DNA of 64,000 nt, from the IMG/VR virus record IMGVR_UViG_3300049988_000286, positions 1 through 64,000 of that record, one strand, 5' to 3'. Position numbers and translations under genes: made by a program. This DNA comes from a virus (taxonomy: Duplodnaviria; Caudoviricetes). This document shows, one piece after another, positions 52,996 to 54,570 of the stretch. The notes under the pieces are model-generated. The model did not search any database. It was not told the DNA's origin and was given only the letters and a program-made list of their open reading frames with translations. Every line of letters begins with the position of its first letter. Position 1 is the first letter of the stretch.

Positions 52996-54570
52996 GTGCC
53001 TGATAATCGGAACATCGACAGCCGTGGTAACTTGGATCACACGGAAGCGCAAGGCTTCGATAGCGATCACAGCGACATCTTCTATGCGGCAATCCAGCGT
53101 TCGCGGATGCCGATGATCCTCACCGATCCTAATCGTCCAGACAACCCGATCGTGTTTTTCAACACGGCCTTCTCGACGCTCACTGGATACCCCCCGGAGG
53201 AAATCCTAAATCGCAACTGTCGCTTCCTGCAAGGGGAGGAGACGGATCGCGATAAGGTCGCCTATGTGGGTCAACAGATTCTCGCGGAGAAGGACTGCTC
53301 GGTAGAGTTGCTCAACTACCGCAAGGACGGCACCTCGTTCTGGAACGCGCTCTTCATCTCGCCCGTCTATGACAATGACGGTAAGCTCGCGTATTACTTC
53401 GCATCCCAGCTTGACGTTACCCGGCGGGTGAAGAGCGAGGAGTTGCTTCGCCAGACCCAGAAGATCGAGACGCTGGGACAACTCACCGGCGGCATCGCGC
53501 ACGACTTCAACAACATGTTGACCGTGGTGATGGGCAACCTCAACATGGCGCAGAACGCCATGGAGGTGAAGCAACCCGATCGCGTATCAGTTTACCTCGA
53601 TCGCGCCATGGCGGCAGCAAAGTCGAGCGATCGTCTCACCCAGCAGCTTCTCTCCTTCGCGCGCAAGCAGCGGATGACGACGGAGCGTCTCGATCTCAAC
53701 GAGGTGGTGCGTCAGGTGCAGACGATGTTCGAGCGCGTGCTCACCACGGGCATCTACGTCTCCGCCGAACTCACCAGTGATCCGTGGATGGTTTCCCTCG
53801 ATCCCAGCCACGCACAGAGCGCTTTCCTCAACGTGCTCCTCAACGCTCGCGATGCCATCCCGGCGACCGGGGGCTCGATCAAGCTACGGACGCGTAATCG
53901 CATCGTCGATGCCGAAAATCCCTTCTACGACCTCGCAGAGGGTGCGTATGTGGAACTCTCGATCGAGGATACCGGGTCGGGCATGTCGGAGGAAACGAAG
54001 ATGCGCGTCTTCGAACCTTTCTTCACCACCAAGGGTGTGGGTAAGGGCACCGGCATGGGGCTCGCCATGGTGCATGGCTTTGCCGACCAGTCCAACGCCA
54101 CCATCATCATCGAGAGCACCGAGGGCGTGGGGACAACGATCTCCTTCATCTTCCCCACCGATGACGCTCACGCCGTAGAGAGGGACCGCCACAGCGGATC
54201 ACGCATCCTTGTCGTGGAGGACAACCAGATGCTCCGCGAGACGACGGTGGATTTCCTGCGGATGCACGGATTCACAGTGCGGGATGTCGATAGCGCCGAC
54301 AGCGCGATCAAGGCACTCGACGGCGGATACGTCCCCGACATCCTGTTCAGCGATGTCGTCATGCCGGGGACGATGGACGGCTTCGGTCTCGGCCGCGTTG
54401 TCCGTGACCGCTTCCCCAGCGTTCACGTGCTGCTCAACAGCGGGTGGACAGATGGTCGCGAGAACAACGACGAGTTCGAGGTGATGAGCAAGCCGTACGA
54501 TCTCACCAAGCTGGCAAGCGTGTTGACGCGCATGAGCGATCTCGATCGCGACAAAGCGCACGAGGGCTAG
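52996..54570 (+). CDS. LOV-domain hybrid sensor histidine kinase (LOV-HisKA-HATPase-REC)
   Basis: LTDPNRPDNPIVFFN, NRNCRFLQG, NYRKDGTSFWN, FASQLDVT; GIAHDFNNML; NVLLNARDA, DTGSGM, FFTTK, GTGMGL; LVVEDN, LFSDVVMPG, SKPY. GTG start inferred. Confidence 0.95.
   Translation: MPDNRNIDSRGNLDHTEAQGFDSDHSDIFYAAIQRSRMPMILTDPNRPDNPIVFFNTAFSTLTGYPPEEILNRNCRFLQGEETDRDKVAYVGQQILAEKDCSVELLNYRKDGTSFWNALFISPVYDNDGKLAYYFASQLDVTRRVKSEELLRQTQKIETLGQLTGGIAHDFNNMLTVVMGNLNMAQNAMEVKQPDRVSVYLDRAMAAAKSSDRLTQQLLSFARKQRMTTERLDLNEVVRQVQTMFERVLTTGIYVSAELTSDPWMVSLDPSHAQSAFLNVLLNARDAIPATGGSIKLRTRNRIVDAENPFYDLAEGAYVELSIEDTGSGMSEETKMRVFEPFFTTKGVGKGTGMGLAMVHGFADQSNATIIIESTEGVGTTISFIFPTDDAHAVERDRHSGSRILVVEDNQMLRETTVDFLRMHGFTVRDVDSADSAIKALDGGYVPDILFSDVVMPGTMDGFGLGRVVRDRFPSVHVLLNSGWTDGRENNDEFEVMSKPYDLTKLASVLTRMSDLDRDKAHEG

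What the first reader, a model, noticed from the sequence alone, without database searches (positions are those of the whole stretch)
52996..54570. Phage-encoded blue-light LOV hybrid histidine kinase
Seen: an intact LOV domain with the photoactive Cys (NRNCRFLQ) and signalling Gln (FASQLDVT), a HisKA His, a complete ATP lid and a receiver Asp, flanked on both sides by phage genes. Known: LOV-HK-REC proteins of plant-associated Proteobacteria regulate motility, attachment, virulence and stress responses in blue light. Inference: the phage senses light during infection and rewires host signalling or its own timing, possibly through the receiver at 17219. This would be phage photoreception by signalling rather than by photosynthesis genes.
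Basis: partly seen in the sequence, partly recalled or inferred. Interest (0 to 1): 0.82.

Follow-up and report, generated by a model that had tools for sequence, protein, structure and literature searches.

The report
Blue-light sensor kinase in leaf megaphages
A 500-kb T4-like phage from leaf surfaces, and at least nine related giant-phage contigs, carry an intact and strongly conserved blue-light (LOV) sensor kinase, so these viruses can probably sense daylight inside the infected cell, which I could not find reported for any phage.

Summary
Window 52996-54570 (+; alternative start 52981) encodes a soluble LOV-HisKA-HATPase_c-REC hybrid histidine kinase. The adduct Cys, the H-box His, the ATP-lid boxes and the receiver Asp/Ser/Lys are all present. 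One of seven flavin-contact residues, the second phosphate-binding Arg, is Gly.

It is a real phage gene:
- The 499.6-kb record has a T4-type capsid protein, portal and terminase.
- An independent assembly of the source run ties both gene halves to long phage contigs at equal depth. A second sample bridges both gene ends.
- Codon usage is typical of the phage.

Ten copies from giant-phage contexts form one clade (support 100/97) with two subclades. One subclade includes a 417-kb IMG/VR phage. The runs that hold substantial parts of either phage are leaf, plant or straw samples. These copies share a C-terminal H-E/Q/M-G tail that bacterial relatives (at most 49% identical) lack. Selection is purifying (dN/dS 0.05-0.24). 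The LOV domain is well kept, while the catalytic and receiver domains have diverged.

Light sensing and its target are inferred. The proposed link to the receiver at 17219 is not supported, because that receiver is coupled to its own GAF-HWE kinase. No paper on a phage LOV receptor was found. The scan had noted bacterial LOV hybrid kinases elsewhere, none in a phage.

The parts
52996..54570 (+). LOV-HisKA-HATPase_c-REC hybrid histidine kinase CDS (524 aa from GTG 52996; alternative TTG start at 52981 gives 529 aa; stop TAG 54568-54570). Residue numbers in this report count from 52981.
53074..53418 (+). LOV sensor domain (residues 32-146). Adduct Cys80 at 53218-53220, Arg81, Gln84, Asn112, Asn122, Gln143 at 53407-53409. 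Gly97 (53269-53271) stands where most relatives have the second FMN-phosphate Arg.
   Evidence: Pfam PAS_9. Alignment to YtvA in YF1. AF2 pLDDT above 90; the domain superposes on the Brucella LOV domain 6ph2 at 1.1 A rmsd over 120 residues. Residue counts.
53419..53676 (+). J-alpha linker running as one helix into the DHp helical hairpin (residues 147-232). Phospho-acceptor His174 at 53500-53502 in the motif HDFNN, which also fits the HisKA phosphatase motif H-[E/D]-x-x-[T/N].
   Evidence: Pfam HisKA. AF2 helices 147-195 and 199-229. No indels between LOV and the H-box in 62 homologues.
53677..54171 (+). Catalytic ATP-binding domain (residues 233-397) with N box (Asn284/Asn288), G1 (DTGSG, 330-334), F box (Phe347) and G2 (GKGTGMG, 354-360).
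   Evidence: Pfam HATPase_c E 1.1e-17. Closest solved kinase core is CckA (5idj, 5idm; TM 0.86, 2.3 A).
54196..54540 (+). Fused receiver domain (residues 406-520): Glu413-Asp414, phospho-acceptor Asp458 (54352-54354), Ser487, Lys504.
   Evidence: Pfam Response_reg E 1.7e-11. Invariant columns.
54559..54567 (+). C-terminal His-Glu-Gly tail. All nine megaphage copies in the 62-sequence alignment (H-E/Q/M-G) and the G001 copy have it. No bacterial relative has it.
16026..17222 (+). Second phage sensor kinase, GAF + HWE_HK. It is context only: part of the phage's signalling kit, not shown to be connected to the LOV kinase.
   Evidence: Pfam GAF and HWE_HK, NCBIfam. Phage-type homologues at 51-64% identity, one on the same contig as the 60% LOV-HK homologue.
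17219..17569 (+). Single-domain receiver (116 aa) that overlaps the end of the GAF-HWE kinase gene.
   Evidence: The same two-gene operon is present in a related phage.

Best explanation
This is a functional, phage-owned blue-light photoreceptor kinase that works inside the infected cell.

Proposed mechanism:
1. The LOV domain binds a flavin. Blue light forms the Cys80-flavin adduct.
2. The change passes through Gln143 and the continuous J-alpha/DHp helix of a homodimer.
3. This shifts the balance of autophosphorylation and dephosphorylation at His174.
4. The phosphate moves to Asp458 of the fused receiver.
5. From there the signal leaves to a partner the phage does not obviously encode, most likely a host phosphorelay or regulator of an alphaproteobacterial leaf bacterium.

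The infected cell's regulatory state or the phage programme would then differ between day and night.

What is shown: intact motifs and fold, phage ownership, long vertical retention, purifying selection that keeps the sensor domain, and restriction of the substantial holders to leaf and plant habitats.

What is inferred: flavin binding and the photocycle, the direction of light regulation, the target and the benefit. Sunlight is the main killer of phages on leaves (PMC3594208), so gating virion release or host stress physiology by light is a plausible pay-off.
For: Protein:
- Domains and motifs are intact.
- The AF2 model has mean pLDDT 83. Its best structural matches are LOV kinases, and its LOV domain lies 1.1 A from the Brucella LOV domain.
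- Cys80, Arg81, Gln84, Asn112, Asn122, Gln143, His174, Asp414, Asp458 and Lys504 are invariant in 62 homologues.

Phage ownership:
- Capsid, portal and terminase lie on the same 499.6-kb record, rated 100% complete by CheckV.
- In Logan's assembly of the source run, a 25.5-kb contig runs into the LOV part and a 30.5-kb contig runs out of the kinase part, at depths 47 and 51. A 191-nt piece at depth 56 bridges them. Sample X2 bridges both gene ends at about 95% identity.
- Codon-usage cosine is 0.946 against a mean of 0.922 for phage genes. In each relative the gene's GC tracks the local phage GC.

Retention:
- Homologues at 60-71% identity sit in contigs that share many other ORFs with this phage.
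- A second clade sits in aaRS-rich giant-phage contigs, including the 416.7-kb IMG/VR record G001, which has gp23.
- All ten copies form one clade, support 100/97, found in 100% of bootstrap trees.

Selection:
- Against a near-identical strain there are 21 synonymous and 4 non-synonymous differences, dN/dS 0.05. Against more distant phage copies the ratio is 0.17-0.24.
- Identity between phage and bacterial copies is LOV 61-66%, DHp 52-58%, CA 42-44% and REC 35-38%. Among bacteria the figures are 72, 65, 57 and 57%. The sensor is kept while the output end is remodelled.

Habitat: the runs that hold substantial parts of this phage or of G001 are leaf, phyllosphere, plant or straw samples, or runs labelled with a coded organism. 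They come from many studies.

Family precedent: the P. syringae LOV-HK of the same architecture binds FMN, autophosphorylates in blue light and passes phosphate to its own receiver domain (PMC3684834).
Against: - Gly97 replaces the second FMN-phosphate arginine. That position is Arg in 55 of 62 homologues, so flavin affinity or flavin type may differ.
- No transcript contig of this gene appeared in two leaf metatranscriptomes, although a neighbouring non-coding stretch was covered (contigs only, so this is weak).
- No promoter was recognised upstream, so timing of expression is unknown.
- No Hpt or ChpT-like transfer protein was found in either phage.
- No neighbour is conserved across both clades, so the output is unknown.
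- The host is unidentified.
- One near-identical strain contig lacks 30 residues that include the G2 box. This is either an assembly error or a dead allele.
Confidence: 0.65

Rival explanations
1. The kinase works but the LOV domain no longer senses light. It would be constitutive, or would respond to redox state or another cue. The phage would use it only as a kinase or phosphatase that interferes with host two-component signalling.
For: Gly97 stands at the second FMN-phosphate Arg position, and that position varies in clade A (G, G, K, R, R). LovK of Caulobacter is reported to regulate the stress response partly independently of light (review PMC4844311).
Against: The LOV core is among the best-kept parts of the protein. 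It is 76-77% identical within each phage clade, 65% between the two clades and 61-66% to bacteria, while CA and REC fall to 35-44%. All other flavin-contact residues and the adduct Cys are invariant. A few bacterial homologues also have Gly, Lys or Ser at this position. Both phage clades occur mainly in light-exposed leaf and plant samples.
Confidence: 0.17
2. One reading: the LOV kinase signals through the phage's own single-domain receiver at 17219.
For: It is the only other receiver domain in the genome. Single-domain receivers can collect phosphate from several kinases (general knowledge of alphaproteobacterial stress signalling).
Against: The receiver gene overlaps the end of a GAF-HWE kinase gene, and the pair is conserved as an operon in a related phage. 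It belongs to the PRK13435 type that accompanies HWE/HisKA_2 kinases, whereas the LOV kinase is HisKA/CckA-like and has its own fused receiver. Clade B phages keep the LOV kinase without an HWE kinase, and carry a stand-alone receiver of a different type.
Confidence: 0.12
3. The gene is an assembly chimera or host contamination and is not carried by the phage.
For: The source-run contigs break inside the gene at 53340-53488. There, conserved kinase words shared with many bacteria raise depth up to 2690.
Against: Both halves continue into more than 20 kb of phage DNA at equal depth. A 191-nt piece with no mismatch joins them. Another sample bridges both gene ends. Full-length colinear homologues lie in nine other phage-context contigs. 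Codon usage is phage-like. The nearest bacterial protein is only 49% identical.
Confidence: 0.02
4. The gene is a neutral passenger picked up from a host and is on its way to decay.
For: One strain contig has an in-frame 30-residue gap that removes the G2 box.
Against: dN/dS is 0.05-0.24. The clade is deep, with a stem of 1.2 substitutions per site. The base composition is fully ameliorated. All ten phage copies share a derived C-terminal tail.
Confidence: 0.03

Closest known systems
LOV-HK-RR hybrid kinases of plant-associated Proteobacteria (NCBIfam NF010076/PRK13557; e.g. Pseudomonas syringae LOV-HK, PMC3684834; Xanthomonas and Methylobacterium homologues)
   Same: The architecture is the same, LOV-HisKA-HATPase_c-REC in about 530 residues. 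The LOV-to-His linker has no indels. All catalytic and flavin residues but one are shared. Both are soluble and orphan, with no cognate regulator nearby. This is the best NCBIfam hit (E 1e-172). Pseudomonas, Xanthomonas and Methylobacterium members are among the nearest homologues.
   Different: Identity is only 45-49%, and the score of 575 bits is below the family cut-off of 631. The gene is encoded by T4-like megaphages. It forms its own clade on a long stem, has a C-terminal H-E/Q/M-G tail and much more diverged CA and REC domains, and has Gly97 in place of the phosphate-binding Arg.
HWE/HisKA_2-type LOV kinases: Caulobacter LovK-LovR, Brucella LOV-HK (PMC8092228, PMC4438053), Erythrobacter EL346
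   Same: A LOV input controls a histidine kinase. The LOV domain is 48% identical to that of Brucella and superposes at 1.1 A. Both belong to alphaproteobacterial biology and link to the general stress response.
   Different: The kinase family differs (HisKA/CckA-like here, not HWE/HisKA_2). Those kinases have no fused receiver and the Brucella one has an extra PAS domain. The phage's separate GAF-HWE kinase plus receiver resembles the LovK-LovR module more closely than the LOV kinase does.
CckA cell-cycle hybrid kinase of Alphaproteobacteria (PDB 5idj, 5idm)
   Same: It is the closest solved kinase core (E 5.8e-38; CA domain TM 0.86). It is a bifunctional HisKA kinase/phosphatase with a fused receiver that needs a separate phosphotransferase (ChpT).
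   Different: CckA is membrane-bound and has PAS sensors without a flavin-adduct motif. Neither phage has a credible ChpT or Hpt gene.
Phage-encoded sensors that set infection decisions (VP882 VqmA-Phi quorum-sensing receptor; arbitrium AimR). From my own knowledge, not checked here.
   Same: A phage carries its own sensor for an environmental or population cue instead of relying on host sensing.
   Different: Those are one-component receptors for small molecules in temperate phages. This is a light sensor coupled to a two-component kinase in T4-like, presumably lytic, megaphages.
Virus-encoded light-related genes (cyanophage psbA and bilin genes; giant-virus rhodopsins). From my own knowledge.
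   Same: Viral genes whose function depends on light.
   Different: Those are energy-conversion proteins, pigment enzymes or ion channels and pumps. None is a flavin photoreceptor feeding a phosphorelay, and none comes from a phage of non-phototrophic leaf bacteria.

Membership tests
LOV photosensory domain | PAS fold with a flavin pocket | tested here: met
   PAS_9 E 7.7e-20. AF2 pLDDT above 90 over residues 40-145. TM 0.92-0.93 and rmsd 1.1 A to the Brucella LOV domain 6ph2.
LOV photosensory domain | Adduct-forming Cys in the G/N-x-N-C-R-F-L-Q motif | tested here: met
   NRNCRFLQG with Cys80 at 53218-53220. Invariant in 62 homologues.
LOV photosensory domain | Full set of flavin-contact residues (YtvA R63, Q66, R79, N94, N104, Q123) | tested here: inconclusive
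   Five of these six are present, in addition to the Cys. The Arg79 equivalent is Gly97. That column holds R 55, G 3, K 3 and S 1 in 62 homologues.
LOV photosensory domain | Flavin binding and a reversible 450-to-390 nm photocycle | not testable with these tools
   Needs purified protein.
HisKA-type sensor histidine kinase | H box with phospho-acceptor His, plus N, G1, F and G2 boxes in a Bergerat ATP-binding fold | tested here: met
   HisKA and HATPase_c are above their cut-offs. His174, Asn284/288, DTGSG, Phe347 and GKGTGMG are present. CA domain lies 2.3 A from CckA.
Receiver (REC) domain | Acidic pair, phospho-acceptor Asp, Thr/Ser and Lys | tested here: met
   Glu413-Asp414, Asp458, Ser487 and Lys504. 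Response_reg E 1.7e-11.
NCBIfam NF010076 (PRK13557) LOV hybrid kinase subfamily | Score at or above the curated cut-off of 631 bits | tested here: not met
   575.2 bits over residues 12-513. In the tree the phage copies form a separate long-stemmed clade beside Caulobacteraceae members. I therefore file it as a divergent relative, not as a member.
Genuine gene of a tailed phage genome | Lies on a contig with virion hallmark genes, junctions confirmed independently, and conserved in related phages | tested here: met
   gp23, gp20 and TerL. Junctions. Relatives.

The most novel reading that the evidence does not exclude
A lineage of 400-500-kb T4-like phages of leaf bacteria carries its own photoreceptor and uses daylight as a cue to steer infection. 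It might, for example, hold back lysis or switch the host's stress and surface programme while UV is high. This would be the first virus-encoded photosensory signalling pathway and a light-gated counterpart of lysis inhibition.
Probability: 0.35. Interest if true: 0.9.

Novelty: new variant of a known kind. Interest (0 to 1): 0.76.

Why it matters
Phages are known to listen to chemical cues such as quorum signals and arbitrium peptides, and cyanophages carry photosynthesis genes. I found no report of a phage with a photoreceptor wired to a signalling kinase.

Here the gene is not a one-off. It has been kept, with the sensor domain conserved and the output end remodelled, in two clades of giant phages found mainly on leaves, where sunlight is the main cause of phage death.

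The proteins are soluble and about 520 residues long, so the photocycle and light-dependent kinase activity can be tested directly without cultivating the phage. If they are confirmed, three things follow:
- Day-night control of phage infection on plants becomes a testable question.
- Timing of phage biocontrol sprays gains a mechanistic angle.
- A naturally diverged LOV-kinase scaffold becomes available to optogenetics.

Tried and rejected
- Megablast of the 8-kb neighbourhood against GenBank phages found nothing.
- tblastn of the protein against the same phages gave only unrelated kinases and LOV fragments in mislabelled bacterial contigs (Listeria, Salmonella). No cultured phage has this gene.
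- A single-protein scan of IMG/VR found nothing. An alignment-based scan was needed.
- Most IMG/VR hits with a LOV motif (L090-L096) have bacterial-type C-termini. L090 groups with Pseudomonas in the tree, so they are probably host genes inside prophage calls.
- The metagenome-contig scan returned only relatives of at most 45% identity and added nothing.
- The strong phrog_5982 hit (E 7e-119) carries no annotation and could not be traced to a phage.
- The ORF just upstream (52375-52926) is not an Acb1 homologue, unlike in three relatives.
- No sigma-70-type promoter or terminator flanks the gene. No shared promoter box was found upstream in the relatives.
- No Hpt, ChpT-like or photolyase gene was found in the phage.
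- Host naming failed. Genome handles are anonymous and the one genome-contig scan went to the sister clade, whose best cellular matches were only 46% identical (Sphingomonas). The only hints are the alpha-type tmRNA and the Caulobacteraceae proteins that are nearest to both phage kinases.
- TAG read-through of the stop codon was considered because the genome has two CTA-anticodon tRNAs. I dropped it because the relatives end in TAA, TGA or TAG without conservation.
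Full report
WHAT IS THERE

The window has one long open frame at 52981-54570 on the + strand. The relatives begin five to eight residues before a shared "N-I-D" motif. A near-identical strain was called from the equivalent GTG. Residue numbers below count from 52981.

Pfam finds four domains, all above their curated cut-offs:
- PAS_9 at residues 48-147
- HisKA at 165-230
- HATPase_c at 274-393
- Response_reg at 409-491

The best solved relatives are LOV kinases: the engineered YtvA-FixL kinase YF1 (E 3.8e-40) and Brucella LOV-HK. 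The best match for the kinase core is Caulobacter CckA.

The YF1 alignment carries YtvA numbering, which gives these equivalents:

| YtvA residue | This protein |
|---|---|
| Cys62 | Cys80 |
| Arg63 | Arg81 |
| Gln66 | Gln84 |
| Asn94 | Asn112 |
| Asn104 | Asn122 |
| Gln123 | Gln143 |
| Arg79 | Gly97 |

The kinase has His174 in HDFNN and the N, G1, F and G2 boxes. The receiver has Glu413-Asp414, Asp458, Ser487 and Lys504.

An AlphaFold model built on 62 homologues has mean pLDDT 83. It shows a LOV core, one continuous helix 147-195 running from J-alpha into the DHp, a second DHp helix, a catalytic domain and a receiver. Its best structural matches are YF1, the SB2F1 LOV kinases, Brucella LOV-HK and EL346. 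The LOV part lies 1.1 A from the Brucella LOV domain over 120 residues.

IS IT REALLY A PHAGE GENE?

The window is the first 64 kb of a single 499,572-bp IMG/VR record that CheckV rates complete. The record has:
- a T4-type major capsid protein (E 1e-72)
- a T4-type portal (E 1e-93)
- a large terminase
- 41 predicted tRNAs
- a two-piece alphaproteobacterial-type tmRNA

In Logan's independent assembly of the probable source run (a leaf metagenome), three pieces cover the gene without a mismatch:
- a 25.5-kb contig runs from upstream phage DNA to 53340, at depth 47
- a 191-nt piece covers 53318-53508, at depth 56
- a 30.5-kb contig runs from 53488 onward, at depth 51

The break falls where kinase motifs shared with many bacteria tangle the assembly graph. 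Depth there rises to 2690.

A second sample (X2) holds a strain about 95% identical. Its small contigs bridge both the upstream junction (52945-53508) and the downstream junction (54451-54780). Eight of the nine differences listed inside the gene fall on third codon positions.

The gene's codon usage is typical of the phage: cosine 0.946 against a mean of 0.922 for genes of similar size, and GC3 within 1.4 sd. Misassembly and contamination are excluded for practical purposes.

RELATIVES

The large protein search gave an unusual ranking:

| Hit | Identity | Source |
|---|---|---|
| one partial protein | 92% | 1.3-kb contig |
| three proteins | 70-71% | metagenome contigs |
| one protein | 60% | 340-kb contig |
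| about 8000 bacterial proteins | at most 49% | Methylobacterium, Brevundimonas, Luteibacter, Variovorax, Xanthomonas, Pseudomonas and others |

The 60-71% proteins sit among small unannotated ORFs, aminoacyl-tRNA synthetases, and NADAR, Tpt1 and DEDDh genes. Their contigs share many other ORFs with this phage at 38-83% identity. They are related megaphages.

A first tree of 120 proteins placed four unnamed proteins as sister to this group. These also lie in aaRS-rich contigs of 48-151 kb, built mostly of co-directional ORFs, that share ORFs with this phage.

An alignment-based scan of IMG/VR then found a fifth member in a 416,714-bp viral record (G001). CheckV rates it 90% complete and it has its own gp23 (E 1e-95).

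In a careful tree of 46 proteins:
- All ten giant-phage copies form one clade, with bootstrap 100, SH-aLRT 97 and presence in 100% of bootstrap trees.
- There are two subclades. Clade A includes the window and sits on a stem of 1.2 substitutions per site.
- The nearest outside sequence, P0110, also sits among phage genes: a DNA-transfer protein PHROG hit at E 1e-184, endonuclease VII, RNase H and PolA. It has a bacterial-type C-terminus.
- Next come Brevundimonas and other Caulobacteraceae (support 98/97).

All phage copies end in His-Glu/Gln/Met-Gly. No bacterial copy does.

SELECTION

- Against the near-identical strain there are 21 synonymous and 4 non-synonymous differences (dN/dS 0.05).
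- Against the 70% and 60% copies the ratio is 0.17-0.24. Synonymous sites are saturated, so these are upper bounds.

Conservation is uneven across the protein:

| Domain | Phage vs bacteria | Bacteria vs bacteria |
|---|---|---|
| LOV | 61-66% | 72% |
| DHp | 52-58% | 65% |
| CA | 42-44% | 57% |
| REC | 35-38% | 57% |

Between the two phage clades the LOV domain is 65% identical, while CA and REC are 37-39%. The sensor has been kept and the output end has been remodelled. That is what one expects if the input (light) matters and the partner has changed.

The Gly97 position varies in clade A (Gly, Gly, Lys, Arg, Arg). It is not strictly invariant in bacteria either: Arg 55, Gly 3, Lys 3 and Ser 1 of 62. 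I read it as tolerated, not as a sign of a dead pocket. It may still change flavin affinity or type.

HABITAT

The runs that hold substantial parts of this stretch are leaf or phyllosphere metagenomes and runs labelled with a coded organism. One wastewater run holds only about 5% of the sampled words. The clade B phage G001 is held by phyllosphere, plant and straw metagenomes; the 16 listed holders, strong and weak together, come from 12 studies.

Sunlight is reported as the most damaging factor for phages on leaves (PMC3594208).

Two leaf metatranscriptomes gave no contig of this gene from this phage. They yielded only short conserved motifs from other organisms. They did cover the adjacent non-coding stretch. 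With contigs only, this says little about low-level expression.

WIRING

The genome has two receiver domains: the one fused to the LOV kinase and a 116-residue protein at 17219-17569. The latter overlaps the end of a GAF-HWE kinase gene at 16026-17222. It belongs to the PRK13435 type that accompanies HWE/HisKA_2 kinases.

The GAF-HWE kinase shows the same phylogenetic pattern as the LOV kinase. Phage-type homologues are 51-64% identical and bacterial ones at most 46%, with Caulobacter the most frequent name among the few annotated ones. One phage-type homologue lies on the same contig as the 60% LOV-HK copy and is again followed by an overlapping receiver.

Clade A phages therefore carry a conserved three-protein signalling kit. 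Adjacency and kinase type pair the small receiver with the HWE kinase, not with the LOV kinase.

Clade B has no HWE kinase. Its stand-alone receiver resembles the hybrid's own receiver, and it has a second PAS hybrid kinase and a LuxR-type HTH gene near the LOV gene.

Neither phage has a credible Hpt or ChpT gene. The P. syringae homologue is likewise an orphan whose downstream partner is unknown (PMC3684834).

MOST LIKELY MECHANISM

Mechanism, by analogy with characterised LOV kinases:
1. The protein works as a soluble homodimer.
2. Blue light forms the Cys80-flavin adduct.
3. The signal passes through Gln143 and the coiled-coil linker. The linker length is identical in all 62 homologues.
4. 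This changes the kinase/phosphatase balance at His174.
5. Phosphate moves to Asp458.

Output, which is inferred:
- It most likely goes to a host phosphorelay protein or regulator.
- The remodelled receiver and the phage-specific tail would be the docking surface.
- The pay-off would be day-night control of the infected cell or of the phage programme.

KNOWN OR NEW?

The protein type is well known in bacteria (PMC3684834, PMC4844311, PMC8092228). I found no report of it, or of any LOV receptor, in a phage:
- Eight full-text searches found none.
- A survey of 224 jumbo phages mentions receivers only in NAD-related systems.
- No GenBank phage record has a homologue with a LOV domain, apart from mislabelled bacterial contigs.

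The score against the curated family model is below its cut-off (575 against 631 bits). I therefore call it a divergent, phage-borne variant of a known kind.

Earlier notes of this scan helped in three ways. They named the genome a T4-related leaf megaphage, which I checked. They noted the GAF-HWE operon, which I checked. They noted the non-coding stretch next door, which I checked in part. The scan's other LOV hybrid kinase notes are from bacteria.

Noticed in passing
window 54990-56540: This stretch of about 1.5 kb has no credible ORF and lies next to the LOV kinase. Long contigs in two leaf metatranscriptomes cover it (55061-56000; one contig of 967 nt at depth 66), while the flanking protein genes are not covered. 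It therefore looks like an abundant phage non-coding RNA. Rfam gave no hit at gathering threshold. A perfect 13-bp-stem hairpin lies at about 54996-55025.
   Followed up: partly
window 16026-17569: A GAF-HWE histidine kinase is translationally coupled to a single-domain receiver of the LovR/PRK13435 type. The same operon is present in a related megaphage (L170 6001-7541). It is a candidate for tampering with the alphaproteobacterial general stress response.
   Followed up: partly
window 36605-37144; L002 9134-9697; L003 6512-7117; L004 9431-9961: These are Acb1 (anti-CBASS phosphodiesterase) homologues. In three related phages Acb1 sits directly upstream of the LOV kinase. In this phage it is 16 kb away.
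   Followed up: partly
window 52363-52926: The ORF just upstream of the LOV kinase starts MRDIIALIE. This fits the capsid-targeting-like tag reported for this genome (e1-5341074). It is preceded by CATAAATA, a T4-late-promoter-like box, at the 3' end of the second tRNA-Cys.
   Followed up: no
L088 (1.3-kb contig of NCBI assembly GCA_004144765.1): A near-identical strain copy of the LOV kinase lacks 30 residues in frame, between two GVG repeats. The gap removes the G2 ATP-lid box. It is either an assembly collapse or a kinase-dead allele.
   Followed up: no
L116 5666-6022 and 11085-13142; L168 2287-2769 and 3202-3732 (record G001, 416.7 kb): The clade B megaphage also carries a LuxR/GerE-type HTH gene 2 kb upstream of its LOV kinase (also seen in L085 and L086). 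It has a second PAS-HisKA-REC hybrid kinase of 685 aa, a stand-alone receiver and a GAF-only protein.
   Followed up: partly
L169 (266-kb contig, NCBI assembly GCA_030012885.1): A third LOV hybrid kinase (P0110) is the nearest outgroup of the megaphage clade. It lies among phage genes: a DNA-transfer protein PHROG hit at E 1e-184, endonuclease VII, RNase H, PolA and an integrase. It keeps the bacterial-type C-terminus.
   Followed up: partly
IMG/VR loci L098, L099, L105, L126, L128, L132, L133, L135, L145: Several other viral contigs of 104-358 kb encode HisKA-HATPase-REC hybrid kinases without a LOV motif. Hybrid sensor kinases may be a recurrent but little-discussed feature of huge phages.
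   Followed up: no
genome C1 102238-102314 and 106351-106425 (outside the window): ARAGORN calls two tRNAs with anticodon CTA, which would read the TAG stop codon. It also calls a tRNA-like gene with a four-base anticodon at 402970-403045.
   Followed up: no
window 50794-51420 and 57211-57696: An HD-domain phosphohydrolase (HD_4, phrog_15275) and a staphylococcal-nuclease homologue (phrog_452) flank the region.
   Followed up: no
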